Shown here: piece by piece, positions 23,784 to 46,170 of the stretch
Layout: each line of letters starts with the position of its first letter
Numbering within the stretch: the first letter of the stretch is position 1
NCBI GenBank assembly: GCA_964600895.1
Contig: CAZRKP010000003.1
Coordinates: 122,416 to 186,415, forward strand
DNA: 64,000 nt
Direction: 5' to 3'
DNA from: an uncultured Victivallis sp.
GTDB taxonomy: Bacteria > Verrucomicrobiota > Lentisphaeria > Victivallales > GWF2-50-93
Position numbers and translations under genes: made by a program
The notes under the pieces: generated by a model
Told to the model about the DNA's origin: nothing
What the model saw: only the letters and a program-made list of their open reading frames with translations
The model's database searches: none

Positions 23784-23793
23784 ATGCCTCCAA

Positions 23794-24716: not shown

Positions 24717-24804
24717 TGTTGCTTCTCCTTTATATTTTATGTATGACATTGCAGGGATTGAAGTTATCCTGCAATTTCCCACTTTTCAAGCCTAGGTAGG
24801 GAAA

Positions 24805-25383
24805 CTACCAATTCTCCTTTTTGATCTCAAAGTAAGACTGCGGGTGCTGACAGGCAGGGCATTTCTTCAGAGCCTCAGGGCCTTCATGGACATAACCGCA
24901 TTTCCTGCACTGCCATTTGACCTTGGAATCCTTTTTGAATACTTTCCCCTCCTTGACGTTTTTCAGCAGGGCATTGTAGCGGGACTCATGCTCGCTTTCT
25001 GCCTTTGCAACCATCCTGAAGAGAGTAGAAACCTCCTTGAATCCTTCCTTTTCCGCGACATCCGCAAATGCCGGATATAGATTGCTCCACTCGTGGTGTT
25101 CACCTGCGGCAGCATGAGAAAGGTTCTCCTGAGTTGTTCCTATCCTGCCAGCAGGATAGCATGCAGTGATCTCAAGGTCCCCTCCTTCGAGGTGCTTGAA
25201 GAAGTTCTTGGCATGGATCCTCTCCTGGTCGGCAGTCTCCCTGAAAATCTCGGCAATCTGCTCAAATCCTTCCTTTTCAGCTGCACTGGCCGAATACGTA
25301 TATCGGTTCCTGGCCTGTGACTCTCCTGCAAACGCCTTTAGAAGATTCTTCTCAGTCTCCGTTCCTTTGATGCTCTTTCCCAT
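24805..25383 (-). CDS. rbr: Rubrerythrin
   Basis: AFAGESQARNRY, QERIH, GEHHE, ESEH diiron motifs; C-terminal CRKCGY...CPAC. Confidence 0.96.
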   Translation of the reverse strand: MGKSIKGTETEKNLLKAFAGESQARNRYTYSASAAEKEGFEQIAEIFRETADQERIHAKNFFKHLEGGDLEITACYPAGRIGTTQENLSHAAAGEHHEWSNLYPAFADVAEKEGFKEVSTLFRMVAKAESEHESRYNALLKNVKEGKVFKKDSKVKWQCRKCGYVHEGPEALKKCPACQHPQSYFEIKKENW

Positions 25384-25414
25384 TCTACACCTCCGTTATA
25401 TTAAATTACTTGAT

Positions 25415-25483
25415 TTTTTGACGGGATTACAGGATCTCCATGATATAACTTTTATCCTGTAAATCCGGTTATCCAGTCAAAAA
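25415..25483. repeat. REP-like palindromic element, family A, between perR and rbr
   Basis: TTTTTGACGGGATTACAGGAT ... ATCCTGTAAATCCGGTTATCCAGTCAAAAA. Confidence 0.7.
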
Positions 25484-25488
25484 TGCGT

Positions 25489-25866
25489 TCATGAGCATTT
25501 TCCACACTGACCTGTAAACTCAATCTTGTAACCTGAGACATCCTTGTTGAGCTTCCTGATCTCGCCCAGTGACTTGTCGAGGATGTCCGCTCCCTCAGGA
25601 TCAAAATCCAATATCCTTCCGCACTTGAGGCATCTCAGGTGATGGTGATGGCTGATGTCACCATCAAATCTCATCTGAGAACCGGCACACTCTATCTTCT
25701 GAACATGCCCTTCCAGTGACAACACTTCAAGATTCCTGTAGACTGACGCAATACTTATCTTGGGAGTTCTCTTCCTTATGTGCTCATAGAACTCGTCCGC
25801 TGTCGGATGAGTCTTGAGCTTTTTCAGCTCCCTTAAGATAGCCTTCCGCTGTCTTGTTAATCTCAA
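25489..25866 (-). CDS. perR: Fur-family regulator, PerR-like
   Basis: TRQR, HPTADE, SIASVYRNL, RFD..HHH, CLKC, CGKC. TTG 25866 has a GAGG RBS; ATG 25890 lies inside the operator. Confidence 0.85.
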   Translation of the reverse strand: MRLTRQRKAILRELKKLKTHPTADEFYEHIRKRTPKISIASVYRNLEVLSLEGHVQKIECAGSQMRFDGDISHHHHLRCLKCGRILDFDPEGADILDKSLGEIRKLNKDVSGYKIEFTGQCGKCS

Positions 25867-25878
25867 TTTAACCTCAAT

Positions 25879-25897
25879 AATAAGAATCATTCTTATT
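25879..25897. promoter_or_regulatory. Fur/PerR-type operator (perfect 9-1-9 palindrome AATAAGAAT-C-ATTCTTATT)
   Basis: Perfect inverted repeat directly upstream of the Fur-family gene; 9-1-9 AT-rich geometry is typical of Fur-family boxes. Confidence 0.8.
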
Positions 25898-26047
25898 TTT
25901 GATAAGCTATACTAATCGCAGTCCATGTCAAGCTTTATCATGAAATATTTCTGTTTTTAACGCCTCCAATGGCGTAAAAATTTGAAATTGACCACGCACG
26001 GACGAAATTACAATACTAACAGACACTTCATATGGGGAGCCTTTGAA

Positions 26048-34104: not shown

Positions 34105-35070
34105 TCAAAAAAGAAGATCAATTATCAGCGGACGATGATCTGAACCTATTACATCTCCCACTCTCCTTCCGGACACTGAAACATCCGGAGAGATCAGGCA
34201 GTGATCTATGGGAATAAGCATGAGCGGATTAATTGTCGGCCACGTAGGCTGGATCCCAAATCCTTTCATTGAATTCCTCATCCCGGACTCTTTCAGGAAC
34301 TTCTTGAAATGAAGCGACCACGGCGTGATGTTCAGATCTCCCGCAAGGATCCTTATCCCATTCTCATCTTTCAGCACCTTCGAGAAATATGCCAGTTCCA
34401 TATTTCTTGTCCTGGAATATTCGCCGTTCACAGGTGGCAGGGCATGCACCGCCCAGAACTTGACAGTTTTACCGCGGATTCCGAACACCGCCTCAACGTA
34501 GGGAAGTTTGAATTCTCCCCACATTTTGATTTCACAGTTTTCTGGACTGATCCTGCTGAACAGCGCTATTCCAAAATTATCCGATTGTGGAAAAGATATC
34601 TTATATTCAAACTCCTTGGCAAGCTCTTCCAGATTACGCATCCATTCCTGATCAACCTCCTCGAGGATCAGGATGTCAGGCGCTTCCTTTTTCACGGCAG
34701 AGATCAGGGCAACGTAGTTTTTGTTGGCTGTATGGACATTCGCAAACATGAGCCTCAATATCGGATTTCCATCTGCTTCTGGAACTGATGGCTGCAGGTA
34801 TAGAGGAATTATCTCGAACAGGTTAGGTATGATGAAAATGGAGATGATGGTGGCAGTCCAGTATCTTTTCAGCAATGCCAGCAAGATGGCGGAGAACACA
34901 ATTACCAGGGCATACTGCGGCCTGAAATGCGAACAGAGGTCGAAGATCCAGAAATATCCTCCGAGATATCCTATGGAAGTCAGAAGTGATGCAAATATTC
35001 CAATTCCCGTGATTAGCGATATAAAGGAGACCTTTGTTGCAAGGACCTCCCTGATCCTACCTGCCATCAT
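34105..35070 (-). CDS. Membrane-anchored endonuclease/exonuclease/phosphatase (EEP, YafD-like) protein
   Basis: Three N-terminal TM; ANV, LEE, GDLN, PIDH, GSDHRP EEP motifs. Confidence 0.88.
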   Translation of the reverse strand: MMAGRIREVLATKVSFISLITGIGIFASLLTSIGYLGGYFWIFDLCSHFRPQYALVIVFSAILLALLKRYWTATIISIFIIPNLFEIIPLYLQPSVPEADGNPILRLMFANVHTANKNYVALISAVKKEAPDILILEEVDQEWMRNLEELAKEFEYKISFPQSDNFGIALFSRISPENCEIKMWGEFKLPYVEAVFGIRGKTVKFWAVHALPPVNGEYSRTRNMELAYFSKVLKDENGIRILAGDLNITPWSLHFKKFLKESGMRNSMKGFGIQPTWPTINPLMLIPIDHCLISPDVSVSGRRVGDVIGSDHRPLIIDLLF

Positions 35071-36101
35071 ATGACAACCCTGTTCCTGCCCTCCTCCTTG
35101 GCCTTGTAGAGATTCAAATCAGCATCATGGATGAGTTTCATGATATCCTGTTCCACCGATGAACTGATGAATCCGGAGGCCCCCCCTATGCTGACAGTGA
35201 CGGAGAAACTCATGGTGCTTCCGGTCTTTTCCTCCACATTGCTTCGGATCTTCTCACAGAGCGACACAATCGATTCAGGATCCTTGCAGTCGGCATAGAT
35301 TATGAACTCCTCGCCTCCATATCTTCCGATTATATCAGACTTGCGGATGCTTGAGCTGATTATAGAGGAGATGAACTTCAGGATTTCATCGCCCTTATGA
35401 TGCCCATACGTGTCGTTTATCTTCTTGAAATGATCGATGTCTATCATCAGGAAGCTAACCTTGAATTTCTTCCTTGATGCAAGGTATGCCACAGGATTGA
35501 CAGCGTTGAAGAACCCTCTCCGGTTGAGCAGTCCTGTCAGAATATCGCATGTATTTTCCTTGGCAAGGCGCCTGTTGTCCATCCAGAGAACCTCAAGCGT
35601 CTCTCCTAACATGTCGGCTTCAGAGATATTCTCCCCGTATTTCTTAAGACCTTCTATGAAATCTGCAATATGCCTGTCATATTCCTCCTCGATACTGTCA
35701 ACCCCTTCAAGGGTCCTGAATACGTGAAACATGGTCGCGAATTCGGGATTTATCATGAGGAATTCAAGCCGGTACGCAACTGGCAGGATCCGGAGGACAT
35801 CCGAGTAGTCTCCAATATCCTTGACCAGAAGAAGGACCTTCTCAAGCAACTTCTCGAATTTTTTCAATATGACCGCCGGGTCTTCAAATACATTTGGGAT
35901 CAGTTCTCTTTCGGCAAGCTTCTGGGCCCTGCTCCAAAATTCCACATGATCCCTTTCGTCCTTGGCAAGCCTGTTCCAGAACAGCTTCATTTTCTCATCG
36001 GAACAGGCGTTGGCCACCCTGTTATACAGCTGATAGGCCTGTGCATCTATCTTCAGACAGGTTTTTAAGATCTCTACGAGAAGCCTATTATTCTCTTCCA
36101 T
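35067..36101 (-). CDS. Diguanylate cyclase with N-terminal ferritin/rubrerythrin-like domain
   Basis: DILTGLLNRR, IDIDHFKKINDTYGH, RKSD I-site, RYGGEEF; N-terminal helical domain with DERDH. Confidence 0.88.
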   Translation of the reverse strand: MEENNRLLVEILKTCLKIDAQAYQLYNRVANACSDEKMKLFWNRLAKDERDHVEFWSRAQKLAERELIPNVFEDPAVILKKFEKLLEKVLLLVKDIGDYSDVLRILPVAYRLEFLMINPEFATMFHVFRTLEGVDSIEEEYDRHIADFIEGLKKYGENISEADMLGETLEVLWMDNRRLAKENTCDILTGLLNRRGFFNAVNPVAYLASRKKFKVSFLMIDIDHFKKINDTYGHHKGDEILKFISSIISSSIRKSDIIGRYGGEEFIIYADCKDPESIVSLCEKIRSNVEEKTGSTMSFSVTVSIGGASGFISSSVEQDIMKLIHDADLNLYKAKEEGRNRVVI

Positions 36102-36190
36102 ACATTGAATATTCCTATGAAAAAAGATATATTATATGTTTATATAAATTAGGCATTTAAGTTATTTTTTTCAATCTTTCAGGACAAGAT

Positions 36191-39100
36191 ATGCCCTTCA
36201 TTCGGAAAATAGGATTTATATGTCTGCTTTCGATAGTTGGTCTCGCGGCTGGCGCTGACATACTTGACGATATATTCGCCCGTTCTACAGATTCCCAGCG
36301 CAAACAGGCGGTAATCGATGCCAGAAACGGCAAGTATGACGAAGCTGTAAAAATCATCAAGAATGTGCTGGCTGAAACAAAAAACGCCCCTGACATCTTA
36401 TGCGACAGCATTGTCATTTTCAAATGGGCCGGCAAATACGAAGATGCATTGGACTCCTTCAGCAAAATCCCCAAGGACTACAAGATACCCGACGCGGTAC
36501 AGCTGGAAATGGCGGTCGTATATTATAAACTTGGAAAGCCGGCCGAAGCTGCACTTCTCTTTGAAAAATACCTGCCGAAAAACGAGAAGGACGTGAAACT
36601 CGTCGAAATGATGGTCCTGTCCTGTATTGATTCTGGAAATTCCAGCAAGGCGTTGGTTTATCTCGAAGATCGTTCAAAGTCTGAAAAGGAAATCCCCCAA
36701 TGGCTGAATGCCCTGATAATCAGGTCAAAGCATGGAAAGGCGGTAGAAACCGCCAGGGCCGGACGTCTCCAGGAGGCTATATCAAACCTCGGTGACCTGA
36801 TAACACAGACTGGAGACAGGAAGAGCATATATTACGATTATATTGTCATCCTCTCCTGGGATCGCCAGTATGAAGAAGCCATTAAGAAATATGCTGAGAT
36901 CTCGCAAAGGAATGACATTCCCGCCTATGCACTTCAATGCATCTTCAACTGTTATGATCAGCTGAAGGACAAGGAAGGAATGCTTGAGGTCGCCAAAAAA
37001 CTTGCCCTCTCGGCTCCATTGGATCAGAAAAACCTCCAGCTGATGCTCCAAAGCTGTGAACTTGCAAACAAACCTGAGGACGGTATAGCAACAGCAGAAG
37101 CCCTGATACGGAATTCACCTGATTCCAAGGAAACTGTGAATCCATTCCTGATGAAGCTGAAACTGATGCTGGCGGTCAAGCTTGCCAGGAACGGTGAACA
37201 TGCCAAATCTCTTGAAATCCTTGAAGGACTTCTGAAGGAAAATGAAAATGATGCTGCCATCATGTCCAACTATATTCTTGTGCTTTCTTGGGCGGGAAAG
37301 AAGGAGGAAGCTAAAAAGATTTACGATGAGTTTTTCAAGGACAGGAAGCCCCCCGAATATCTCGTCAAGGAAATGACTGGACGCGCACCTGAAAAGACGG
37401 TGTTGACTATAGAACCAAATGAATCCACCGCTCTAAAGGAATCTCCTGCGGACAAAACTGCGGTTCAGGACACTGCCGACACTGTTTTAAAATATCTTGA
37501 TTCTGGGAAGATCGACAAGGCCATAGATGAAGTTGCAGGAAAACTCTCAAACCTCAACGAGAAGAACAGGGATTACCTCAACAAGTCGATGTCAATGATC
37601 CGGGAAAAGGCCATACAGGCGGGAAGGAACGGAAAATGCGATGAGGCTATCGTCATAATCGACAAACTCCTTGGTCTTAACTATGAAAAGCCCTCCCTTC
37701 TCGCCGACAAAATCATCATAATGGTATGGGCTGAGGACTATGCCAGTGCGATTGATCTTTATTCCAGGTTCAAAGATACTTATGCTCCCAATGCTCATTT
37801 GCTCAATGCTGTGGGCACGGCTTACAGGAGGACCGGAAAATATCACGAGGCCATTGAATGCTATGAAAAATCCCTGGCATTGGATTCCGACAATCCAGAA
37901 TCAATAAAAGGCAAGGTCTTTTCCTTGGTGGGTGCCGGACAAAATGCCGAAGCGGAGACTTTCATTAAAAAGGAATCGGAAAAACTGCAGCCAACTCCAA
38001 AATGGTTGATGCTGCTTCCGTGTGAAGCCTGCATTGTTGGTGGAAGATATGATGATGCGGGACGCCTGCTCAAGGAATACCTTGGAAAAGATCCTGATGA
38101 TAAAGAAGCAAGGAAAATGCTGGTTGAAGTTCGGATCCATCAGAAGACAGGTCTTGACGAGGCGATGAAGATCACGGAAGATCTCATAAAGGACGATTCT
38201 TCAAATCAAGACCTGTTGTTCCTAAAGGTCACTCTTCTCCAACTTTCAAGGGAATATATTGCAGCATACGACTTCAACGAGAGGATCCTTTCCATCAACA
38301 AGTTCTACAGGCCATCGATAAATGCAAAGTATCACATCCTTCTTGACATGAAGGCAGCAATCCTCGCGGACCAGATGCTCAGGGAATCCGGCGACAATGT
38401 GTCATATGCCGTGAAGAAAAGGCTGATGGGCGATCTCGCCGCCGAACAGCTGTCATGGAAGGATTACAGGAAGGCCATACAGGTGATCGATGAGAATATC
38501 CAGACATATGACAAGTTCAAGGCCATTCCCGAAGCCGCAGAAGACGCCGAGACCCTGAAGCTGAGAGCCCGTTTTGACAGGATACTCGCCCTTTTCCAGG
38601 GCGAAAAGATGGCGGAGATAATAAAAGAATACGAATCATTGAAGGCAGATGGCATTGATGTGCCTTCCTGGCTCAGGCAGAACGTGGCCGCAGCCTATCT
38701 CTACTGCCGTCATCCCGATACCGCCCTCGCCATGTATAGGGAAATCCACGAGGAGCTCAAAAAAGACGGCATTGACAGGTATCCCGACAACTACATCGTC
38801 CTCCAGGGAATTTATTCATGTCTCATAGAGCTGGAAGACCAGAGCGCAGCATATGATATCCTCGAAGTCCTTGAGAAGGAGACACCGGCATACGCAAGGC
38901 CTACAGGTGTCTATACTGAAAATTCAGAGAAGCTGGATTTGGGGGTGGAAAGGGGATGGTGGTACATCTACAACGACCAGCTTCCTTATGCCGAGGAATA
39001 TCTTTCCGAACTCATTGAAAAGGCCCCCTACAATTCCAACATAAGGACTGCCATTGGCTACCTGCATTACTACCGTGGATGGTCGCGGCTGGCCCTCGAG

Positions 39101-40156
39101 GACTTCCAGATATCCACCGAGCTCGATCCCAACGACAAGTCGGCCCAGATAGGATTGGCCTACACCCTCAACGAAAACGATGAATGGGAGAAGGCAAGAA
39201 CTGTTGCCGCTGAACTCGCAAAGAAATATCCCGAGGATCTGGATGTAAAGGAGCTCCAGAGATCCTTCGAACTGCAGGAGAAGAGAACACTCACGGTCGA
39301 CAGCAACTATTCCAACGCCGGCAACTTCTCAGACGGATCCGGTGTCACGATGCGTCTGGAACAGCCGATATATCCTGAGAGGAAGATCTATGCTGAAACG
39401 CTATGGCTTTACACTTCACAGCCCAAGGATTCCAACCAGGAAGGAAAAAGAAGGAACATATTCCGTGGAGCCATAGGATTCGATTGGCGGCTCAGCAATG
39501 GCCTCTACATATTTGGAGAGGCTTCGCTGGACTATCACGCCAGAGAGCCTGGTTTCATGGCTGGTCTCAGATGGAAGCCGACAGATCATCTGACCCTGAG
39601 CGGCTTCTACAATTCATACACCCTCAACATGCCTCCCAAGGCCCTGCTCTTCGGAAAGAAGGGTCAGGAGGCCAATATCTCCGCAGAATACCGCTTCAGC
39701 GAGGATCTTATCGTGAATGCCGGATTTTCAAATGTATGGGTGTCTGACGGGAACATAAACCAGACCTATAGCTGGAAGATTGACAAAGGTATCTGGTCTT
39801 CGGCCTACTGGAAGTTCAGGATTGCTGTTGAAGGATCCACCACCACCAATACCAAGATCGACACAGACTATTATTCTCCCAGATACTATACCTCTGTATA
39901 TTTCGTCCCGATGGTTGAACATCTCTGGTACAGGCGCTATGAGACATCAATCGTAGACAGGCTTTTCCTGGGTATCGGCCCGCATTGGGAGAAGGATTAC
40001 ACATGCAAGGCACAATATTACCTGCGTTATGAGCAGGAATATCAGCTTACTGATTATTTCGGATTCAAGATTGGCGGAAAGATAGGCAAGGAAAGATACG
40101 GGGATGACAACCCATGCGCATGGGGATTCTATGGAAGCCTGATATTTAAGTTTTAA
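36191..40156 (+). CDS. pgaA: PNAG export porin PgaA, extended TPR version (1321 aa)
   Basis: Signal peptide; repeated ARxG..D-x-I-x-x-x-x-W modules; DRILAL..EY, W..Q.VAAAYL; C-terminal aromatic beta-barrel ending in F; first gene of pgaBCD. Confidence 0.85.
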   Translation: MPFIRKIGFICLLSIVGLAAGADILDDIFARSTDSQRKQAVIDARNGKYDEAVKIIKNVLAETKNAPDILCDSIVIFKWAGKYEDALDSFSKIPKDYKIPDAVQLEMAVVYYKLGKPAEAALLFEKYLPKNEKDVKLVEMMVLSCIDSGNSSKALVYLEDRSKSEKEIPQWLNALIIRSKHGKAVETARAGRLQEAISNLGDLITQTGDRKSIYYDYIVILSWDRQYEEAIKKYAEISQRNDIPAYALQCIFNCYDQLKDKEGMLEVAKKLALSAPLDQKNLQLMLQSCELANKPEDGIATAEALIRNSPDSKETVNPFLMKLKLMLAVKLARNGEHAKSLEILEGLLKENENDAAIMSNYILVLSWAGKKEEAKKIYDEFFKDRKPPEYLVKEMTGRAPEKTVLTIEPNESTALKESPADKTAVQDTADTVLKYLDSGKIDKAIDEVAGKLSNLNEKNRDYLNKSMSMIREKAIQAGRNGKCDEAIVIIDKLLGLNYEKPSLLADKIIIMVWAEDYASAIDLYSRFKDTYAPNAHLLNAVGTAYRRTGKYHEAIECYEKSLALDSDNPESIKGKVFSLVGAGQNAEAETFIKKESEKLQPTPKWLMLLPCEACIVGGRYDDAGRLLKEYLGKDPDDKEARKMLVEVRIHQKTGLDEAMKITEDLIKDDSSNQDLLFLKVTLLQLSREYIAAYDFNERILSINKFYRPSINAKYHILLDMKAAILADQMLRESGDNVSYAVKKRLMGDLAAEQLSWKDYRKAIQVIDENIQTYDKFKAIPEAAEDAETLKLRARFDRILALFQGEKMAEIIKEYESLKADGIDVPSWLRQNVAAAYLYCRHPDTALAMYREIHEELKKDGIDRYPDNYIVLQGIYSCLIELEDQSAAYDILEVLEKETPAYARPTGVYTENSEKLDLGVERGWWYIYNDQLPYAEEYLSELIEKAPYNSNIRTAIGYLHYYRGWSRLALEDFQISTELDPNDKSAQIGLAYTLNENDEWEKARTVAAELAKKYPEDLDVKELQRSFELQEKRTLTVDSNYSNAGNFSDGSGVTMRLEQPIYPERKIYAETLWLYTSQPKDSNQEGKRRNIFRGAIGFDWRLSNGLYIFGEASLDYHAREPGFMAGLRWKPTDHLTLSGFYNSYTLNMPPKALLFGKKGQEANISAEYRFSEDLIVNAGFSNVWVSDGNINQTYSWKIDKGIWSSAYWKFRIAVEGSTTTNTKIDTDYYSPRYYTSVYFVPMVEHLWYRRYETSIVDRLFLGIGPHWEKDYTCKAQYYLRYEQEYQLTDYFGFKIGGKIGKERYGDDNPCAWGFYGSLIFKF

Positions 40157-40167
40157 GGGGACATATA

Positions 40168-42156
40168 ATGAGAAAATTTGCGATAATCACAATTTTACTT
40201 CTGTGCCTTCCGGTGATGGCTCAGAATCTTTCCATGTTCTCCGGAGGCGACTTCAGAGGTAGCAATCCCATTGACATCAGCAAAGGATTCCCTCCAAATT
40301 CCTTCCTGGTTCTATGCTACCATGATATTCCATTCAAAATTGCAGATGACAAGGATGCCTATGCCGTGGAGCTCGAATCTTTCGTGAAACAGCTTGAATA
40401 CCTCAAATCCGAGGGATGCAGTTTCATAAGCGCTGACGACATCCTCAAGGCCAAGGTCGGGGAGAAGAAGCTTCCGGAAAAGGCGGTGCTGCTTTCCTTC
40501 GACGACGCATACGACACTTTCTACAGGAATGTCTTTCCACTGCTCAAGCTTTACAAATGTCCGGCCGTGCTCGCAGTAGTGACAAGCTGGATAGACGCCC
40601 CGCCGGATGATCCGGAATACAACAAGAAATTCATGACCTGGGAACAGTTGCGTGAAGTCGCGTCCTCTGGGTTTGTAAAAATTGCCAGCCACAGCCATGC
40701 CCAGCACAAGGGAGTTCTTATGAACCCCCTTGGAAGCATGGCTTCCGCCATACAGACCAGGATATATGATCCCGCAGGTAGGAAATATGAGACCGACCAG
40801 GAATACATCGGACGACTGCGCGATGATTTCAGCAGGTCGTTCTTGATTATAAAGGAAAGGACCGGGGTTGCGCCGGAATCCATCGTCTGGCCTTATGGAA
40901 GATATAACTATGCTGCAGTTCAAGAGGCACAGAAAGCAGGCTTCAAGATGATGTTCACACTCGACGATGGATTTGGAACTCCTGAAAGGATTGATGCCAT
41001 ACCCAGATACATGATAATGAATAATCCGACCATAGAGAATTTCGCGGTCATGTTCAAGAAGAGTTTCATGAACATCGCCAGGCTCCGTGTCATCCATGCC
41101 GATCTGGACTCAGTCTATGATCCGGATCCGGAAAAGCAGAATAAGAATATCGACGCCTTCATAGAGAGGATCTACAGGATTAAGCCTTCCGCCGTATACC
41201 TCCAGGCGTTCTGCGACGATAAGGGTGATGGAAACGTATCATCCGTATATTTCAACAACAGGTTGCTGCCGATGAAGGCCGATATCTTCAGCAGGATAGC
41301 CCGTTCATTGTTCGTAAGAGGGATATCCGTCTATGCCTGGATGCCTGCGATGACCTATGTCCTGCCGGATGAAAAGGAGAACGAAAGGCTGCGGATCTGT
41401 GAGTTCCGCGATGGAAAGATCCAGCCTTCCACCTCATGGTATAAGCGCCTTTCCCCGTTCAACGAGGATGCATGCCGGAAGATAGAGATGATCTTCGAGG
41501 ATCTATCCATCTACTGCGATTTCGATGGAATAATCTTCCAGGACGACGCATACATGAATGACTACGAGGATTTCAGCCCTGAGGCTTTGAAGGAATACGT
41601 CAAGATCTCCGGTGATGCCAATATTCCTTTCAGCAAGCTGAGCAACGAGCAAAAGGATAAATGGACAGATGTCAAGACTGAAAGAATAATGTCTCTCACG
41701 GACAGGATCAAGAAAAAAGTACTTTACTACCGGCCTGAGATCCGTTTCGCCAGGACCCTTTATGCCCCGGTACTTCTAAAGCCTGAAAGCGAGGAATGGT
41801 TCTGTCAGAATTATGAGAAGACCTTGAAACGTTATGATTATGCTGTCATAATGGCATATCCGAAGATGGAAGATGTGTCGGTTTTCAGCGAGGACTCATG
41901 GCTCAGGTCGCTTGTCCAAAAGGCATCCAAATTCCCGAACGGGCTTGACAGTACTGTCTTCAAGACACAGGCATTCGACTGGAAAAAGGACAAATGGATC
42001 AGTTCCTCCACGGTCAACCAATGGCTCAGGATCCTTGTGGCGGCAGGTGCATATCACATTGCATATTATCCTGATGATTATATCGGCAACCGTCCTGATT
42101 TGAAGACCATATCTGACATGATATCTTCAAGGTATTTCCCATATGAAAACAAATAG
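40168..42156 (+). CDS. pgaB: PNAG N-deacetylase / GH153 PgaB
   Basis: VLCYHD, LSFDDAY, ASHSHAQH (CE4); DLDSVYDPD, FQDDAY..DYEDFS, YAVIMAYP, AYYPDD (GH153). Confidence 0.94.
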   Translation: MRKFAIITILLLCLPVMAQNLSMFSGGDFRGSNPIDISKGFPPNSFLVLCYHDIPFKIADDKDAYAVELESFVKQLEYLKSEGCSFISADDILKAKVGEKKLPEKAVLLSFDDAYDTFYRNVFPLLKLYKCPAVLAVVTSWIDAPPDDPEYNKKFMTWEQLREVASSGFVKIASHSHAQHKGVLMNPLGSMASAIQTRIYDPAGRKYETDQEYIGRLRDDFSRSFLIIKERTGVAPESIVWPYGRYNYAAVQEAQKAGFKMMFTLDDGFGTPERIDAIPRYMIMNNPTIENFAVMFKKSFMNIARLRVIHADLDSVYDPDPEKQNKNIDAFIERIYRIKPSAVYLQAFCDDKGDGNVSSVYFNNRLLPMKADIFSRIARSLFVRGISVYAWMPAMTYVLPDEKENERLRICEFRDGKIQPSTSWYKRLSPFNEDACRKIEMIFEDLSIYCDFDGIIFQDDAYMNDYEDFSPEALKEYVKISGDANIPFSKLSNEQKDKWTDVKTERIMSLTDRIKKKVLYYRPEIRFARTLYAPVLLKPESEEWFCQNYEKTLKRYDYAVIMAYPKMEDVSVFSEDSWLRSLVQKASKFPNGLDSTVFKTQAFDWKKDKWISSSTVNQWLRILVAAGAYHIAYYPDDYIGNRPDLKTISDMISSRYFPYENK

Positions 42157-42170
42157 ATGAAGGACAGATA

Positions 42171-43400
42171 ATGGATATCGTCTACAATTTCGTATTCTAC
42201 TATCCCCTTCTTATGGGTTTCATCTGGATGTTCGGTTCCATACTATTCCGCATATACAGGGACACCTATTTGATCAAGGAACCTGATATCCCTGGAAATC
42301 CGATGGTTTCCATACTGGTCCCCTGCCACAATGAGGAGGAATGCATCGAGGATACGATTCGCTATCTCCAGCTGCAGTCCTATCGTAACTTTGAGATCAT
42401 CGCAATAGACGATGCAAGCAAGGACAAGACTGGAGAGATACTCATGAACCTTCAGAAGGAGTTCAGTAATCTCCGCGTGATCACCCTCAAAAGCAACCAG
42501 GGAAAGGGAACTGGATTGACCATGGCTGCAATGGTAAGCAAGGGTGAATTCCTGGTTGGTATTGATGCTGATGCACTTCTTGATCCTGATGCGGTAAAAT
42601 GGATAATGTGGCATTTTGCAAATTTCCCCAGAGTCGGTGCCGTCACAGGAAATCCCAAGGTAAGGAACAGGACCACTCTTCTTGCGAAGATACAGGTCGG
42701 CGAATATTCCACCATCATCGGAATGATAAAGAGGACGCAGAGGATCCTCGGCAAGATATATACCGTGTCTGGTGTTGTCGCGGCATTCAGGAAGAAAGCC
42801 CTGCTTGACGTTGGCTGGTGGTCCAACAACATGGTAACGGAAGACATTGATGTCAGCTGGAAGCTGCAGATTGACAAATGGGACATCCGCTATGAGGCTC
42901 GTGCACTCTGCTGGATACTTGTTCCAGAAACCCTCAAAGGAATCTTCAAGCAGCGCCTACGCTGGTCTCAAGGAGGGAACGAGGTGCTTATTAAATATTT
43001 CCCAAAGATACTCGATTGGAAAAGCCGCAGGATCTGGCCACTTTACATTGAGTATGCCGCAAGCGTACTCTGGTGCTATCTCCTCCTGCTTACATTTATA
43101 CTGTCAGTTCTTTATCTTCTGAATGTCCCGCTTCCTCAGGATCTTGTCGTGAGAAATGTCCTTTCTCCGGGCTGGACCGGAGTCCTTCTCGCCGCGGTCT
43201 GCATGCTCCAGCTTACGGTCGGGATAATATTTGATGCCAGATATGACAAAACCTTGCTGAAGATAATACCATGGATGATCTGGTATCCCGCCATTTACTG
43301 GGTAATCACCGCAATAACAACCATAATTGCATTCCCGAAGGCCCTGCTTAAGAAGAGGAATACTCTTGCGGTCTGGGAAAGCCCGGACAGGGGGTTGTGA
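42171..43400 (+). CDS. pgaC: PNAG synthase PgaC (GT2)
   Basis: PCHNEE, IDDAS, GIDADA, VTEDIDVSW, QRLRW, AVWESPDRG. Confidence 0.96.
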   Translation: MDIVYNFVFYYPLLMGFIWMFGSILFRIYRDTYLIKEPDIPGNPMVSILVPCHNEEECIEDTIRYLQLQSYRNFEIIAIDDASKDKTGEILMNLQKEFSNLRVITLKSNQGKGTGLTMAAMVSKGEFLVGIDADALLDPDAVKWIMWHFANFPRVGAVTGNPKVRNRTTLLAKIQVGEYSTIIGMIKRTQRILGKIYTVSGVVAAFRKKALLDVGWWSNNMVTEDIDVSWKLQIDKWDIRYEARALCWILVPETLKGIFKQRLRWSQGGNEVLIKYFPKILDWKSRRIWPLYIEYAASVLWCYLLLLTFILSVLYLLNVPLPQDLVVRNVLSPGWTGVLLAAVCMLQLTVGIIFDARYDKTLLKIIPWMIWYPAIYWVITAITTIIAFPKALLKKRNTLAVWESPDRGL

Positions 43401-43927
43401 TGAAAGAAGAAAAGAATTTTGACAAACCTATCATCATTGAAAGACCCAGTCTGGTCTCCAAGACACGGCATTATACGGAATGGACCATCCACATCATAGG
43501 TTGGATCCTCTGGATGCTCCTCATACGCCCGCTTATCATTTTGCTTTTGTGGTATCTCACCTACAGGTTCTTCAAATATGAGATGTTCACCCTCGAGGGG
43601 ATAGACAATCCGATATATTTCGGAATTGGAGCAGGAATACTTGTATCAATCTATCTGATCATGTTCGTCTGGAGCCGGTATAATGCATGGAGGTTCAAGG
43701 GCAAGGACAGACGCAAATCGCGCGGTGATGCAACACCGGAGGCAATAGCGGAATTCTATAAGATGAAGACGGAAGACATTTCCGCCCTCCAGAGTTCCAG
43801 CAAGATTGACATTTATTTCCTCGACAACGAACTCATAGAAATTGATAATGGCAGGGAAAACAGGATCAAGGCGTTATACGCACCGCTTAACCAGTCAAAA
43901 CACCATGACAAGAATTTTAAAATCTAA
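43397..43927 (+). CDS. pgaD: PNAG biosynthesis protein PgaD
   Basis: PIII, two TM helices, WSRYN..RF.G.DRR; overlaps the pgaC stop. Confidence 0.88.
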   Translation: MMKEEKNFDKPIIIERPSLVSKTRHYTEWTIHIIGWILWMLLIRPLIILLLWYLTYRFFKYEMFTLEGIDNPIYFGIGAGILVSIYLIMFVWSRYNAWRFKGKDRRKSRGDATPEAIAEFYKMKTEDISALQSSSKIDIYFLDNELIEIDNGRENRIKALYAPLNQSKHHDKNFKI

Positions 43928-43928
43928 T

Positions 43929-44507
43929 ATGTCTCCTGTAATTGTGGGAATGAGCATAAGCGGAATATTCCGCATGCTAGATCCATATACCAGGAAGCAT
44001 AGCCGGCGTATAAGCCGCATGGCTGTGATCATTGCAAGAAAAGTGGGGGTCTGCGACAAGGATGAACTGCGGAAAATAAGGATAGGCTGCCTATACCACG
44101 ACATAGGAAAACTTTTTATACCCTTGGAGGTCCTTAACAAGTCTGAACCACTCAGCAGAAGGGAATATTCCATGATAAAGAAACATCCCGTGTTCGGCTT
44201 GAGGATCATAAAGCGCTTTCCTGAACTTCATGATATCTCAAAAATAATCCTGCAGCACCATGAATCATGGGATGGGACCGGGTATCCACATGGCCTCAAA
44301 GCCGGGAAGACCTGTCTTGGAGCAAGGATCTGCAGTCTGGCAGATTCTTTCGATGCAATGCGGACGGACAGGACGTATAGCGGCAAAAAGCCCTTCCTCT
44401 TGGTAGTCAAAGAAATAAACAGATGTTCAGGGAAGAGATATGATCCTTCTGTCGTAGAGGCCTTCAACAAATGTGCCAGAAAACTTGACATGCTTGCAAG
44501 GGGATAA
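43929..44507 (+). CDS. Stand-alone HD-GYP c-di-GMP phosphodiesterase
   Basis: HSRR, YHDIGK, KHP, HHESWDGTGYP, ADSFDAM; ATG 43929 directly after the pgaD stop. Confidence 0.9.
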   Translation: MSPVIVGMSISGIFRMLDPYTRKHSRRISRMAVIIARKVGVCDKDELRKIRIGCLYHDIGKLFIPLEVLNKSEPLSRREYSMIKKHPVFGLRIIKRFPELHDISKIILQHHESWDGTGYPHGLKAGKTCLGARICSLADSFDAMRTDRTYSGKKPFLLVVKEINRCSGKRYDPSVVEAFNKCARKLDMLARG

Positions 44508-44511
44508 TAAG

Positions 44512-46170
44512 ATGAAAAGATTCAAAATATTCTTGCAAATCCTGATAACAGTTTGCTCCCTCAATGCATTAGCTCTCTCTCCTGAATTGGACAATTCGCT
44601 TACACCTGCTGAAAAAGAATGGATTAAAAAGCATCCTGCCATCCGCCTGGGAGTCGACAATTCCAGCTATTTCAGGGGCATGATTGATGATAACGGAAAT
44701 TATACCGGCATGGGTGCCGACTACGTCCGTCTTCTTGAAAAAAAGACAGGGCTTTTATTCAAGATCGTTCTTTGCGAAAACTGGAGCAATGTCATTGCAA
44801 AGGCCAAAGCCAAGGAAATTGATGTCATTCCGATAGTAGCAAAGACTCCTGAAAGGGAAAAATTCCTGAAGTTTACCATTCCATTCATTGACATGCCGAA
44901 TGTAATAATAACCTCCAGGAAAAGATCAGATATTACAAGTATTAACGATTTACGGGGCAAAACAGCTTCTGTAAACAAGGGATATGTCATACAGGAATGG
45001 CTTTCGGAAAACCATCCTGAAATAAAACTGGTATTCAGGACAAGTTCGGAGGAAGGTCTGAAGGCTGTCGCCGTTGGGGAAGTCGATTCATATGTCGGCG
45101 ATCTCTCTACAGCCGTATATGCCATCAACCATCTTTACCTGTCAGATCTAAAAATAGCGGCAAACGTTCCTTTCAATGTGAAATGGGGAATGGCGGTACG
45201 CGAGGACTGGCCGGAACTTGTAGCAATCCTCGACAAGGCCATCGGTTCTACCAATCCTGAAGAACATGCTGCAATAAAACGAAAATGGACCACTCTGTAC
45301 AGCGGAATTGATTATAAAACATTTCTCCTGATCATCATCCCCCTCATCATTGTTTTTATATTGCTGACAATGCTATATTCAAATATTCGACTGAAGAAAG
45401 AGGTTCTCCAGAGGAAAATTTCCGAAGCTAGACTTGAAAGCCTCCAGAAGATATCCCACTACAAGGCAAAGAGTATCCAGGACCTGCTGGATTATGCGCT
45501 CGGAGAAGCTATTTCCCTGACCAGCAGTAAGATCGGCTACATATACCATTATAATGAGGAAAGAGAAGAGTTTGTCCTGAACACGTGGTCGAAAGATGTC
45601 ATGAAGGAATGTACCATCGCCAATCCACAGAACATATACAAGTTAGACAAGACTGGAATATGGGGTGAGGCAGTACGCCAGAGGAAACCGATCATGCTGA
45701 ACAATTTCGAAGCACCCCATCCCCTGAAGAAAGGCTATCCGGAAGGTCATGCGAAATTATATCGGTTCATGACTATACCGGTTTTTGTCGAAGACAAGAT
45801 AGTTGCTGTCGCCGGCGTGGCGAATAAGGAGAAAGATTATGATGAGGCCGACGTAAGACAGCTTTCCATGCTTATGGATTCAGTATGGAAATATGTACAT
45901 AAGAAAGAATTGGAATCTGAAAAGGAAAAACTTATAAACGACCTCCAGAAGGCATTGTCAGAAGTCAAGACTCTCAGTGGGCTTCTGCCTATCTGCGCCA
46001 ACTGCAAAAAAATACGCGATGACAAAGGATACTGGGATATCCTTGAAAGTTATTTCATGAAGCATTCAGACACCAAATTCTCACATGGAATATGCCCGGA
46101 CTGCATGAAGAAGCTTTATCCCGAATATGCGGCAGATCTTGAAGACAAAGGACCATCTCAAAATCCATGA
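44512..46170 (+). CDS. Membrane sensor: periplasmic PBP domain - TM - GAF - small Cys4 domain
   Basis: Signal peptide; PBPb-like region (GMGADY, IDVIP, VAVGEVDSYVGD); one TM; GAF (GIWGEAVRQRKP, GYPEGH); C-terminal CANC...HGICPDC; no H-box, ATPase or GGDEF. Confidence 0.8.
   Translation: MKRFKIFLQILITVCSLNALALSPELDNSLTPAEKEWIKKHPAIRLGVDNSSYFRGMIDDNGNYTGMGADYVRLLEKKTGLLFKIVLCENWSNVIAKAKAKEIDVIPIVAKTPEREKFLKFTIPFIDMPNVIITSRKRSDITSINDLRGKTASVNKGYVIQEWLSENHPEIKLVFRTSSEEGLKAVAVGEVDSYVGDLSTAVYAINHLYLSDLKIAANVPFNVKWGMAVREDWPELVAILDKAIGSTNPEEHAAIKRKWTTLYSGIDYKTFLLIIIPLIIVFILLTMLYSNIRLKKEVLQRKISEARLESLQKISHYKAKSIQDLLDYALGEAISLTSSKIGYIYHYNEEREEFVLNTWSKDVMKECTIANPQNIYKLDKTGIWGEAVRQRKPIMLNNFEAPHPLKKGYPEGHAKLYRFMTIPVFVEDKIVAVAGVANKEKDYDEADVRQLSMLMDSVWKYVHKKELESEKEKLINDLQKALSEVKTLSGLLPICANCKKIRDDKGYWDILESYFMKHSDTKFSHGICPDCMKKLYPEYAADLEDKGPSQNP

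What the first reader, a model, noticed from the sequence alone, without database searches (positions are those of the whole stretch)
35067..36101. Diguanylate cyclase with a rubrerythrin/ferritin-like sensory domain
Seen: the ~180-aa N-terminus is helical and carries IDAQAY..., AKDERDH (ExxH), RLEF and EEYDRH at ferritin-like spacing; it resembles the rubrerythrin N-terminus (A..LY...A......K.FW..LA.DE..H). The GGEEF active site and RxxD I-site (RKSD) are intact. Established: ferritin-like four-helix bundles hold carboxylate/His diiron centres; O2-responsive DGCs are known with globin and hemerythrin sensors. Inference: a diiron O2/peroxide/iron-responsive cyclase, fitting an anaerobe that also carries the PerR operon 10 kb away. 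One expected Glu is Asp, so metal binding is not certain.
Basis: partly seen in the sequence, partly recalled or inferred. Interest (0 to 1): 0.65.

Follow-up and report, generated by a model that had tools for sequence, protein, structure and literature searches.

The report
Ferritin-like sensor cyclase beside PNAG operon
This gene encodes a soluble enzyme that makes the biofilm signal c-di-GMP; its front half is a previously unnamed, ferritin-related helical domain with a conserved metal-site-like cluster, and it sits next to the genes for a sticky polysaccharide (PNAG), so it probably switches matrix production on or off in response to a metal or redox cue that is still unproven.

Summary
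The ORF (35067-36101, minus strand, 344 aa) is real. Its C-terminal half is an intact GGDEF diguanylate cyclase with GGEEF and the RKSD I-site. Its N-terminal 184 residues form a confidently predicted seven-helix domain. No Pfam or NCBIfam model covers that domain at threshold. It defines a family of at least 386 clusters (50% identity), almost all with the same 345-aa architecture. One degenerate member was crystallised in 2008 (PDB 3EZU, function unknown). The family profile matches solved ferritin-like diiron proteins (TM1526, E=4e-6), and 29 of 48 members weakly hit Pfam Rubrerythrin. Only helices A-B are recognisably ferritin-like, and the query fails the tests for membership of Rubrerythrin itself. 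Conserved residues are D19, E49xxH52, E113 (225/225) and Y141-D-x-H144, plus C15. A sister clade swaps E49/H52/H144 for K/R/P together. This looks like a carboxylate/His metal site, but I could not check geometry or metal binding. That link recurs in relatives in two arrangements. I found no PerR link. Verdict: a plausible metal/redox-sensing cyclase controlling PNAG, and a new variant of a known kind. The signal remains inferred.

The parts
35067..36101 (-). Whole ORF (344 aa plus stop): soluble two-domain diguanylate cyclase
   Evidence: ORF list. No hydrophobic 19-residue window. Full-length AF2 model has pLDDT 91.2 and pTM 0.77. Full-length homolog of PDB 3EZU at E=1.1e-61.
35550..36101 (-). 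N-terminal sensor-like domain, residues 1-184; seven helices (2-32, 36-64, 75-95, 102-116, 119-132, 137-155, 162-183); divergent ferritin-like
   Evidence: AF2 pLDDT 94.3, pTM 0.90. 386 family representatives. Family profile against PDB: 3EZU 5e-39, TM1526 4e-6, 2FZF 1.6e-5, EncFtn/EncB/ferritin 3e-4 to 1e-3. 29 of 48 members hit Pfam Rubrerythrin.
36045..36059 (-). Helix A core stripe: C15 ... D19. D19 is the counterpart of the first ferritin-like Glu ligand and lies seven residues before Y26.
   Evidence: C15 is C in 209 of 225; D19 is D 169, E 24, N 28; Y26 is Y in 219 of 225. The TM1526 alignment places D19 on its helix-A Glu.
35946..35957 (-). Helix B E49-R-D-H52 (ExxH motif)
   Evidence: E49 in 207 of 225 and H52 in 207 of 225. 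Aligns to ExxH of TM1526, 2FZF, EncFtn and designed diiron proteins and of the Rubrerythrin, COQ7 and RNR profiles.
35763..35765 (-). E113 on helix 4 (RLEF), the only invariant acidic residue of the domain
   Evidence: E in 225 of 225 family members. It is Q in the crystallised degenerate member 3EZU.
35670..35681 (-). Helix 6 Y141-D142-R-H144 (variant of the second ExxH, with Tyr at the Glu position)
   Evidence: Y141 in 214 of 225; position 142 is E 92 and D 82; H144 in 216 of 225. H144 becomes P together with E49K and H52R in a sister clade.
35070..35549 (-). GGDEF catalytic domain, residues 185-344
   Evidence: PF00990 E=1.3e-40. TIGR00254 E=1.1e-45. Foldseek matches PleD, WspR, DgcZ, DosC and other cyclases.
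35334..35345 (-). I-site R253-K-S-D256 (product inhibition)
   Evidence: Translation. R253 and D256 are invariant in the 75-sequence alignment.
35304..35318 (-). Active-site G262-G-E-E-F266
   Evidence: Translation. G262, G263 and E265 are invariant.
36102..36190 (.). 89-bp AT-rich divergent intergenic region between the cyclase and pgaA
   Evidence: Sequence. One sigma-70-like match on the + strand, no more than chance. No PerR-box-like site.
36191..40156 (+). pgaA: TPR-rich PNAG export porin
   Evidence: TIGR03939 E=3.7e-144; PF21197 PgaA_barrel.
40168..42156 (+). pgaB: PNAG N-deacetylase
   Evidence: TIGR03938 E=1.5e-205.
42171..43400 (+). pgaC: PNAG synthase (GT2)
   Evidence: TIGR03937 E=3.6e-167.
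43397..43927 (+). pgaD: small membrane partner of PgaC; with PgaC it forms the c-di-GMP receptor in E. coli
   Evidence: TIGR03940 E=1.1e-17. PF13994 E=1.6e-21. Mechanism taken from PMC8461298.
43842..44507 (+). HD-GYP-type c-di-GMP phosphodiesterase gene at the end of the pga operon (the true start is probably downstream of the listed TTG)
   Evidence: PF13487 HD_5 E=3.4e-31. HD and HHESWDGTGYP motifs are present. The same gene follows pgaD in relatives.
34105..35070 (-). Membrane-anchored endonuclease/exonuclease/phosphatase-family gene; its ATG overlaps the cyclase stop codon (ATGA). Not conserved in relatives, so probably not part of the core module.
   Evidence: PF03372 E=9.7e-23. Overlap and N-terminal hydrophobic windows. 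Absent from L081, L082, L083 and L088.

Best explanation
The gene encodes a cytoplasmic, catalytically competent, product-inhibited diguanylate cyclase. Its activity is probably set by an N-terminal seven-helix domain that is a divergent member of the ferritin-like (rubrerythrin-type) superfamily. In that domain, core-facing residues from four helices most likely form a buried carboxylate/histidine metal site, iron being the best guess. The residues are C15 and D19 on helix 1, E49-x-x-H52 on helix 2, E113 on helix 4 and Y141/H144 on helix 6. Occupancy or oxidation state of that site would be passed through the last helix (162-183). That helix runs straight into the DxLTGLLNRR start of the GGDEF domain, so it could change how two GGDEF domains meet. 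The c-di-GMP produced acts locally on the PgaC-PgaD synthase encoded by the divergent pgaABCD operon and switches on PNAG export. The HD-GYP enzyme encoded at the end of that operon removes the signal. What is shown: the domain architecture, the intact catalytic and inhibitory sites, family-wide conservation, the ferritin-like relationship of helices 1-2, and the recurrent genomic link to PNAG or other exopolysaccharide genes. What is inferred: metal binding, the identity of the metal, the nature of the signal (O2, peroxide, redox or iron), the direction of regulation, and that PgaCD here is c-di-GMP dependent as it is in E. coli.
For: Cyclase: PF00990 E=1.3e-40 and TIGR00254 E=1.1e-45. GGEEF, RKSD and invariant D221, N229, D238 and K335. 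The GGDEF half superposes on characterised cyclases. Sensor family: 386 representatives, nearly all 340-350 aa. 3EZU is a full-length homolog at E=1e-61. Ferritin-like relation: family profile against PDB gives TM1526 4e-6, 2FZF 1.6e-5, designed diiron 2HZ8 9.5e-5, EncFtn 2.8e-4, EncB 4.7e-4 and ferritin 8e-4. 29 of 48 members hit Rubrerythrin, 14 COQ7, 9 Ferritin_2, 7 DUF2383 and 3 RNR small chain, while unrelated families appear once or twice. These hits align residues 9-65 to the first E...ExxH half of the profiles. Foldseek hits other than 3EZU are mostly ferritin-fold proteins, with TM up to 0.55. Site: E113 in 225 of 225, H144 in 216, E49 in 207, H52 in 207, Y141 in 214, C15 in 209. They fall on i/i+3/i+4/i+7 stripes that face a bundle core (read directly from the sequence). 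A sister clade replaces E49, H52 and H144 together by K, R and P while keeping D19 and E113, as expected if Lys/Arg take the place of metal ions. The crystallised member lacks E113 and H144, and the JCSG survey lists it only for an unidentified ligand; whether the entry contains a metal I could not check. Output: divergent pgaABCD plus HD-GYP in the window. The same layout occurs in relatives at 64-70% identity. A 34%-identical member sits inside a pgaABCD-DGC-REC/HD-GYP operon. Another relative is divergent from a GH114/TPR/DUF2194 polysaccharide cluster. PgaCD is activated by c-di-GMP in E. coli (PMC8461298). Ecology: the organism is an anaerobe-type bacterium carrying rubrerythrin, desulfoferrodoxin and a flavodiiron protein. 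It is found in activated sludge and digesters, where oxygen fluctuates.
Against: No coordinates were available, so I could not measure whether the conserved residues cluster within bonding distance. The second half of the domain shows no sequence relation to ferritin-like helices C-D. It carries Tyr where the canonical bridging Glu should be. The query clade lacks H118 and E81, which most of the family has, so the site may differ between clades. Foldseek matches to ferritin-fold proteins are individually non-significant (E>0.01). The only solved member carries an unidentified ligand, which leaves room for an organic ligand. Many family members, for example in Desulfobacter, are not next to polysaccharide genes. 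No PerR-type site links the gene to the peroxide regulon.
Confidence: 0.5

Rival explanations
1. The domain senses metal occupancy rather than redox. It would bind Zn(II), Mn(II) or Fe(II) at a mixed Cys/His/carboxylate site, and metal binding would lock or release the cyclase. This would work as the zinc-binding CZB domain does in E. coli DgcZ, which also feeds PgaCD.
For: C15 is near-invariant (209 of 225) and lies one helical turn from D19, level with H52 across the hairpin (geometry read from the helix boundaries). Most family members have three His (52, 118, 144). The functional parallel is a helical-bundle cyclase controlling PNAG: YdeH/DgcZ controls PgaD levels per PMC8461298, and DgcZ appears among the fold hits of the full-length model.
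Against: There is no Pfam CZB hit at E<=1. Sequence relatives are diiron-carboxylate proteins, not zinc sites. Three conserved buried carboxylates favour a harder or dinuclear site. The query clade lacks H118.
Confidence: 0.2
2. The conserved polar cluster binds a small organic ligand (for example a lipid, aldehyde, quinone or metabolite) in a pocket of the bundle, with or without a metal. The cyclase would then report that metabolite.
For: 3EZU was deposited with an unidentified ligand (PMC2954221). Fold hits include aldehyde-deformylating oxygenase and 3EZ0, which are ferritin-fold proteins with substrate or unknown-ligand cavities (TM 0.48-0.50). Conserved aromatic residues (Y26, W42, W56, Y141, F72) line the core.
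Against: The location of the unknown ligand in 3EZU is not known to me; it may lie in the GGDEF domain. The E...ExxH pattern and its concerted K/R/P replacement are typical of metal sites.
Confidence: 0.12
3. The N-terminal domain is a ligand-free dimerisation or scaffold module. The conserved polar residues would form a structural hydrogen-bond and salt-bridge network, and the enzyme would be regulated only by expression and I-site feedback.
For: Members with K49/R52/P144 and members with N19 keep an intact GGEEF, so the domain can exist without the full residue set. 3EZU crystallised without several of these residues.
Against: E113 is invariant and C15, E49, H52, Y141 and H144 are 92-96% conserved across a family that is only about 30-40% identical overall. 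That is hard to explain by packing alone. Homology points to metal-binding hairpins.
Confidence: 0.1
4. The bundle binds haem b through His52 and His144, making this a haem-based gas or redox sensor cyclase.
For: Two core-facing, near-invariant His lie on opposite helices. The top non-self fold hits include designed four-helix haem and dimetal maquettes. Haem sensors are common partners of GGDEF domains (PMC7033309 was listed but I did not read it).
Against: Buried invariant carboxylates next to the His residues are atypical of haem pockets. There is no sequence similarity to any haem-binding family. The maquette hits are explained by long-helix geometry and their own designed dimetal sites.
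Confidence: 0.05

Closest known systems
PDB 3EZU (Geobacter sulfurreducens NP_951600.1, JCSG 2008, 'multidomain protein of unknown function with GGDEF domain')
   Same: Full-length homolog with the same two-domain architecture and length (E=1.1e-61; N-domain alone 6.6e-18). It is the top structural match for both models.
   Different: 3EZU is a degenerate member: Q at E113, G at D142, Y at H144, and DGDEF instead of GGEEF. It probably neither binds the metal nor represents the active state. No function or domain name was ever assigned, and an unknown ligand was modelled. The predicted domain arrangement differs from the crystal (TM 0.49, rmsd 15.5 Å for the full length).
Ferritin-like diiron-carboxylate proteins of the rubrerythrin type (TM1526/1VJX, Pfu 2FZF, rubrerythrin PF02915, encapsulated ferritins)
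   Same: Helices 1-2 carry the (E/D)-x6-Y ... E-x-x-H half-site in the same register. The family profile matches at E=4e-6 to 1e-3, and 29 of 48 members hit PF02915.
   Different: The second half-site is not recognisable. Tyr replaces the second ExxH glutamate. Three extra helices are present. There is no rubredoxin domain. The domain is fused to a signalling output instead of acting as a peroxidase or iron store.
Vibrio cholerae Bhr-DGC (hemerythrin-GGDEF)
   Same: It is the functional model: an N-terminal four-helix non-haem diiron domain regulates a C-terminal GGDEF domain by redox state and promotes biofilm (PMC9388753).
   Different: The fold family and ligand set are different. Hemerythrin uses five His plus two carboxylates, whereas this domain has only three His in total and no Hemerythrin Pfam hit.
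E. coli DgcZ (YdeH), CZB-GGDEF cyclase feeding PgaCD
   Same: A small soluble cyclase with a helical-bundle metal-binding N-domain whose product controls PNAG synthesis through PgaC/PgaD (PMC8461298; zinc/CZB details are from my own knowledge of Zahringer et al. 2013).
   Different: There is no sequence relation to CZB. The ligand set is different. Here the cyclase gene is physically adjacent to pgaABCD and paired with an HD-GYP gene.
Globin-coupled sensor cyclases (DosC, BpeGReg)
   Same: O2-responsive sensor domain fused to GGDEF. The GGDEF halves are closely similar (DosC GGDEF, E=7e-26).
   Different: Those use a haem-globin sensor. There is no haem-binding signature here.

Membership tests
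GGDEF diguanylate cyclases (PF00990 / TIGR00254) | Domain model matched above the curated threshold | tested here: met
   PF00990 139.3 bits against 23.8; TIGR00254 155.3 bits against 37.4.
GGDEF diguanylate cyclases (PF00990 / TIGR00254) | GG(D/E)EF active-site loop plus Mg/GTP-contact residues (PleD D327, N335, D344, K442 equivalents) | tested here: met
   GGEEF at 262-266. D221, N229, D238 and K335 are invariant columns. Asp at 238 argues for GTP specificity rather than a Hypr cGAMP synthase (the last point is from my own knowledge).
GGDEF diguanylate cyclases (PF00990 / TIGR00254) | RxxD inhibitory site five residues upstream of GG(D/E)EF | tested here: met
   RKSD at 253-256. R253 and D256 are invariant.
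GGDEF diguanylate cyclases (PF00990 / TIGR00254) | Enzymatic synthesis of c-di-GMP by a dimer | not testable with these tools
   Needs an enzyme assay.
3EZU-type N-domain/GGDEF family (unnamed) | Full-length homology with the ~180-aa helical N-domain followed directly by GGDEF | tested here: met
   E=1.1e-61 to 3EZU across residues 7-344. 386 representatives matched with the N-domain alone.
Rubrerythrin family (PF02915) | Pfam gathering score reached | tested here: not met
   15.6-16.8 bits against 22.8 for the query. Among the ten members examined, one reaches 23.0 bits.
Rubrerythrin family (PF02915) | Two E...ExxH half-sites on helices A-B and C-D | tested here: not met
   The first half-site is present (D19, E49xxH52). 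The second has E113 but Y141-D-x-H144 instead of ExxH. hhalign against a profile of 80 rubrerythrins gives E=0.027 and probability 1.8%, hairpin only. No internal repeat.
Ferritin-like superfamily (four-helix-bundle dimetal-carboxylate proteins) | Detectable homology to established members | tested here: met
   Profile against PDB: TM1526 4.2e-6, 2FZF 1.6e-5, EncFtn, EncB and ferritins <=1.4e-3. Consensus of Pfam hits to Rubrerythrin, COQ7, Ferritin_2, DUF2383, RNR and MiaE.
Ferritin-like superfamily (four-helix-bundle dimetal-carboxylate proteins) | Ferritin-like fold of the whole domain | tested here: inconclusive
   Non-self Foldseek hits are mostly ferritin-fold proteins, but E>0.01 and TM 0.3-0.55 (best 2RCC 0.55, 3EZ0 0.50, ADO 0.48). 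Seven helices rather than four.
Ferritin-like superfamily (four-helix-bundle dimetal-carboxylate proteins) | Six-ligand dimetal site (E, ExxH, E, ExxH) with the ligands converging in space | tested here: inconclusive
   Five of the six positions have conserved counterparts, and Tyr replaces the sixth. Spatial convergence could not be measured because no coordinates were available. Two covariation analyses failed their internal control.
Ferritin-like superfamily (four-helix-bundle dimetal-carboxylate proteins) | Metal actually bound | not testable with these tools
   Needs ICP-MS, spectroscopy or crystallography of a non-degenerate member.
Hemerythrin-coupled cyclases (Bhr-DGC) | H...HxxxE...HxxxH...HxxxxD motif / Hemerythrin domain | tested here: not met
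   No Hemerythrin hit at E<=1. The N-domain has only His52, His126 and His144. The motif is as given in PMC10101095.
CZB zinc-sensor cyclases (DgcZ) | CZB domain with a 3His/1Cys zinc site | tested here: not met
   No CZB Pfam hit for the query or any of the 48 members among the listed families. The resemblance is functional only.
pgaABCD-linked c-di-GMP module | Cyclase gene adjacent to a complete pgaABCD, conserved across relatives | tested here: met
   Window. L081/L082 and L083 have the same divergent layout. In L086 the cyclase lies inside the operon after pgaD. This does not hold for the whole family.

The most novel reading that the evidence does not exclude
The N-terminal domain founds a new class of signalling module: a ferritin-like dimetal (probably diiron, with a Tyr and a Cys in the second shell or as ligands) redox/O2/peroxide or iron sensor. 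It is widespread in anaerobes (Lentisphaerota, Desulfobacterota including Geobacter). In this lineage it directly gates PNAG matrix production when an oxygen-sensitive cell meets oxidants. Natural metal-free paralogs (K49/R52/P144) and the degenerate 3EZU would be built-in controls.
Probability: 0.3. Interest if true: 0.75.

Novelty: new variant of a known kind. Interest (0 to 1): 0.55.

Why it matters
Sensor-coupled diguanylate cyclases are well known, with globin, PAS, hemerythrin and CZB sensors among others. In the searchable literature I found no cyclase described as using a ferritin-like dimetal-carboxylate domain as its input. This domain also has no Pfam or NCBIfam model, even though a crystal structure has existed since 2008. 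If the conserved cluster binds iron, this would be a second, independent route by which non-haem diiron chemistry is used for c-di-GMP signalling. It would give a function to several hundred 'GGDEF domain protein' clusters from anaerobes. The locus is also a compact, testable circuit of cyclase, PgaCD receptor and HD-GYP. It could explain how strict anaerobes in sludge flocs tie matrix production to oxygen or iron exposure. If the cluster is only structural, the finding reduces to an ordinary cyclase next to a PNAG operon.

Tried and rejected
1. A word-indexed homolog search with the N-domain alone found nothing. The exhaustive HMMER search was needed instead.
2. The search for related loci with the N-domain alignment failed for lack of a conserved stretch. 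With the full protein it returned mostly generic GGDEF loci, and only L001, L002 and L036 are full-length relatives.
3. An internal A-B versus C-D repeat test by hhalign gave no signal.
4. Mean-field DCA on about 225 sequences was run twice. The top couplings were driven by gaps or outlier sequences, and the known H1-H2 hairpin was not recovered. I discarded it as evidence for or against residue clustering.
5. Profile comparison with the window's own rubrerythrin and ferritin and with a profile of 80 rubrerythrins gave only a weak hairpin match. I therefore rejected membership of Rubrerythrin proper.
6. I rejected PerR co-regulation. The palindrome AATAAGAATCATTCTTATT upstream of the Fur/PerR gene has no similar site near the cyclase.
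7. I considered the EEP gene, which is translationally coupled downstream, as a partner and rejected it as a core part because it is absent in relatives.
8. The 344-aa ORF at 20384-21418 was checked as a possible paralog. It is a Cys-rich membrane permease, not a relative.
9. Literature searches for 3EZU and GSU0542 found no functional study.
10. I ran no further search on looking for other output domains fused to this sensor.
Full report
**The observation**

An ATG-initiated ORF of 344 codons lies at 35067-36101 on the minus strand.
- C15 and D19 in LKTCLKIDAQAY
- E49-R-D-H52 in AKDERDH
- E113 in YRLEF
- Y141-D-R-H144 in EEYDRH
- RKSD at 253-256
- GGEEF at 262-266

The protein has no hydrophobic segment, so it is cytoplasmic. 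Pfam GGDEF matches residues 185-341 at E=1.3e-40, and TIGR00254 matches at 1.1e-45. In a 75-sequence alignment the classical catalytic positions are invariant: D221, N229, D238, R253, D256, G262, G263, E265 and K335. The cyclase half is therefore intact, including the product-inhibition site.

**The N-terminal domain is not in the curated libraries**

No Pfam or NCBIfam model covers residues 1-184 at threshold. The best matches are Rubrerythrin (E=0.022, 15.6 bits against a cut-off of 22.8), MiaE, MbfA and EncB, all weak and all ferritin-like.

A sequence search of PDB found a full-length homolog, 3EZU, at E=1.1e-61. The N-domain alone matches it at 6.6e-18. 3EZU is a JCSG structural-genomics entry from Geobacter sulfurreducens, titled 'multidomain protein of unknown function with GGDEF-domain'. 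The only literature mentions I found are a survey of unidentified ligands (it carries a UNL) and a GGDEF alignment. No function has been assigned.

In the alignment, 3EZU has Q for E113, G for D142, Y for H144, and DGDEF for GGEEF. It is therefore a degenerate member of the family.

**The domain defines a large family**

An exhaustive HMMER search of 1.84 billion representatives with the N-domain alone gave the following:
- 386 proteins at E<=1e-3
- 283 proteins at E<=1e-10
- nearly all about 340-350 aa, which is the same two-domain architecture

Overall identity among members is only about 30-40%, yet a small set of polar and aromatic residues is almost fixed. Counts in 225 members:

| Position | Residues |
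|---|---|
| E113 | E 225 |
| W56 | W 224 |
| Y26 | Y 219 |
| W42 | W 217 |
| H144 | H 216 |
| Y141 | Y 214 |
| C15 | C 209 |
| E49 | E 207 |
| H52 | H 207 |
| D19 | D 169, E 24, N 28 |
| 142 | E 92, D 82 |
| 118 | H 158 (N in the query) |
| 81 | E 144, D 33 (K in the query) |

These residues fall on i/i+3/i+4/i+7 stripes: 15-19-22-26, 42-45-49-52-56, 106-109-113-117 and 141-144-148-152. Such stripes are the faces that point into a helical bundle.

AlphaFold2 with the family alignment gives a confident seven-helix model (pLDDT 94.3, pTM 0.90). From its helix boundaries, the antiparallel hairpin puts D19 level with E49, C15 level with H52, and Y26 level with W42.

**Is it ferritin-like?**

At family level, yes for the first half.
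- A profile of 48 N-domains matched solved structures in this order: 3EZU (5e-39), the 'putative ferritin-like diiron-carboxylate protein' TM1526 (4.2e-6), P. furiosus 2FZF (1.6e-5), a designed diiron protein (9.5e-5), encapsulated ferritin (2.8e-4), EncB (4.7e-4) and ferritins (about 1e-3). All matches lie over profile positions 3-63.
- In the TM1526 alignment, D19 falls on the helix-A Glu seven residues before the conserved Tyr, and E49xxH52 falls on ExxH.
- When each of the 48 members was scanned separately, 29 hit Rubrerythrin (best 1.1e-6), 14 COQ7, 9 Ferritin_2, 7 DUF2383, 3 RNR small chain and 2 MiaE. Unrelated families appeared once or twice.
- In the members I inspected, the matches cover residues about 9-65 and the first half of those profiles.
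- Foldseek of the model returns 3EZU first (E=5e-5, TM 0.68). After it comes a list dominated by ferritin-fold proteins (YciF, aldehyde-deformylating oxygenase, Dps, an RNR-like protein at TM 0.55, 3EZ0 at 0.50, TM1526, 2FZF), all at E>0.01.

The limits are as follows.
- The second half (helices 4-6) shows no relation to the first half.
- It shows none to a profile built from 80 canonical rubrerythrins either: hhalign E=0.027, probability 1.8%, hairpin only.
- The residue at the canonical second ExxH glutamate position is Tyr141.

So the domain is a divergent ferritin-like relative. It is not a member of the Rubrerythrin family.

**Is there a metal site?**

This is inferred, not shown. The arguments for it:
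- The conserved set is one Asp/Glu, ExxH, an invariant Glu and a His. This is the composition of a carboxylate/His dimetal site, with an extra Tyr and Cys nearby.
- A sister clade (P0170, P0171, P0173, P0175, P0005) has changed E49, H52 and H144 together to K, R and P. It keeps D19, E113 and an intact GGEEF. This is what one expects if Lys and Arg replace metal ions next to buried carboxylates.
- P0005 is a tandem paralog of an intact-site copy.
- 3EZU has lost E113 and H144 and is known only for an unidentified ligand.

I could not measure distances, because model coordinates are not exposed. Two covariation analyses failed their internal control. The query's own clade has N/T/S at 118 and K at 81, where most members have His and Glu. 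Its site, if real, is therefore the minimal version: D19, E49, H52, E113, D142 and H144.

**Context**

The cyclase is transcribed divergently, across an 89-bp gap, from a complete PNAG operon.

| Gene | Coordinates | Evidence |
|---|---|---|
| pgaA | 36191-40156 | TIGR03939, 3.7e-144 |
| pgaB | 40168-42156 | TIGR03938, 1.5e-205 |
| pgaC | 42171-43400 | TIGR03937, 3.6e-167 |
| pgaD | 43397-43927 | TIGR03940, 1.1e-17 |
| HD-GYP gene | 43842-44507 | HD_5 3.4e-31; HHESWDGTGYP motif |
| SBP_bac_3 / TM / GAF protein | 44473-46170 | |

In E. coli, c-di-GMP binds PgaC and PgaD, stabilises PgaD and activates the synthase, and the cyclase YdeH/DgcZ supplies the signal (PMC8461298).

The link recurs in relatives:
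- The closest homologs (57-70% identity) come from Lentisphaeria/Victivallales MAGs. The two I looked up (64% and 70% identity) have the same divergent cyclase/pgaABCD/HD-GYP/SBP-GAF layout.
- A member only 34% identical sits inside a pgaA-B-C-D-cyclase-REC/HD-GYP operon.
- Another relative in the same chromosomal slot is divergent from a different polysaccharide cluster with GH114, TPR and DUF2194 genes.

More distant members from Desulfobacter and other lineages have unrelated neighbours. The PNAG link is therefore a lineage-specific use of a general sensor cyclase.

The downstream EEP-family membrane protein (34105-35070) overlaps the cyclase stop codon by ATGA. It is absent from relatives and is probably incidental.

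**The PerR idea**

The oxidative-stress operon at 22575-25890(-) is real: Fur family, rubrerythrin, desulfoferrodoxin, ferritin and a flavodiiron protein. It marks the organism as an oxygen-stressed anaerobe. Its promoter palindrome has no counterpart near the cyclase, so there is no evidence of co-regulation.

The locus occurs in activated-sludge and digester metagenomes. A 225-nt metatranscriptome contig covers the first 75 codons of the cyclase (35875-36099). This is weak evidence of expression.

**Mechanism proposed**

A soluble cyclase would have its dimer geometry controlled by the state of a buried metal site in a ferritin-like bundle. The signal would pass through helix 162-183, which continues directly into the GGDEF entry motif D186-x-L-T-G-L-L-N-R-R. 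Its c-di-GMP would activate the neighbouring PgaCD. The I-site and the HD-GYP enzyme would limit the signal.

The closest working analogue is V. cholerae Bhr-DGC, where a hemerythrin diiron domain makes the cyclase redox-dependent (PMC9388753). The closest analogue for the output logic is DgcZ-PgaCD. Neither is a homolog of this sensor domain.

My confidence by layer:

| Claim | Confidence |
|---|---|
| Active cyclase | about 0.9 |
| Ferritin-like superfamily relative | about 0.8 |
| Functional link to PNAG | about 0.75 |
| Metal site | about 0.55 |
| Diiron redox/O2/peroxide sensing specifically | about 0.3 |

**Novelty and score**

This is a new variant of a known kind: sensor-coupled cyclases are common, but this sensor class is unnamed and unstudied. 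It is a good, cheaply testable lead, because a crystal structure and natural site-less paralogs already exist. All claims about the signal remain inference. Interest 0.55.

Noticed in passing
window 22575-25981 (- strand operon and its promoter): Oxidative-stress operon: Fur/PerR-family regulator (25489-25890), rubrerythrin with rubredoxin tail (24805-25383), desulfoferrodoxin (24339-24782), ferritin (23794-24342) and a flavodiiron protein (22575-23783). A perfect 19-bp palindrome AATAAGAATCATTCTTATT lies just upstream of the regulator gene (about 25878-25898) and is a likely autoregulatory box. It occurs only once in the window.
   Followed up: partly
window 43842-44507 (+): A stand-alone HD-GYP phosphodiesterase gene (HD and HHESWDGTGYP motifs) overlaps the end of pgaD and is conserved after pgaD in relatives. 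In one relative it carries a receiver domain. The PNAG operon thus carries its own c-di-GMP degrading enzyme.
   Followed up: partly
window 44473-46170 (+): A 565-aa protein with a periplasmic SBP_bac_3 domain, one strong transmembrane segment (about residues 275-300), a cytoplasmic GAF_2 domain and a Cys-rich C-terminal tail (LPICANCKKIRDDKGYWD...SHGICPDCMKK). The tail has no Pfam match. The gene is conserved downstream of the HD-GYP gene in relatives. Its output function is unknown.
   Followed up: no
window 34105-35070 (-): A membrane-anchored endonuclease/exonuclease/phosphatase-family protein (three or so N-terminal hydrophobic segments). Its start codon overlaps the cyclase stop (ATGA). 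It is absent at this position in the Lentisphaeria relatives, which have only a 97-aa ORF before fabH.
   Followed up: partly
L088 9001-11219 (Logan contig, Victivallales-like relative): Two tandem paralogs of the cyclase: one with the intact conserved cluster (P0161) and one with E49K/H52R/H144P (P0005). They are divergent from a GH114 / TPR / DUF2194-DUF2334 polysaccharide cluster instead of pgaABCD. This is a natural intact versus site-less pair.
   Followed up: partly
L084 and L087 (Desulfobacter contigs): In Desulfobacter the family member has N at position 19. It lies directly after two Band_7 (stomatin/HflK-like) genes and before a small THIVI_2564-family gene, in a conserved block with RelA_SpoT and a sigma-54 activator. 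This context differs from the PNAG one.
   Followed up: no
window 35875-36099: A 225-nt contig from an activated-sludge metatranscriptome is identical to the 5' end of the cyclase ORF and stops 2 nt short of the first base of the ATG. This hints at expression and possibly at a very short leader, but a single contig cannot show either.
   Followed up: no
window 20384-21418 (-): A 344-aa polytopic membrane protein with a Cys-rich loop (EETCCCHEKCCEEK). It was checked only because its length equals that of the cyclase. It is not related to it, and it looks like a metal-related permease.
   Followed up: no
L081/L082 14823-19038: The closest relative's contig carries a type I-C-like CRISPR-Cas adaptation/effector block (Cas2, Cas1, Cas4, Cas7, Csd1) a few kb from the syntenic fabH-plsX region. 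I did not look for a counterpart in the window.
   Followed up: no
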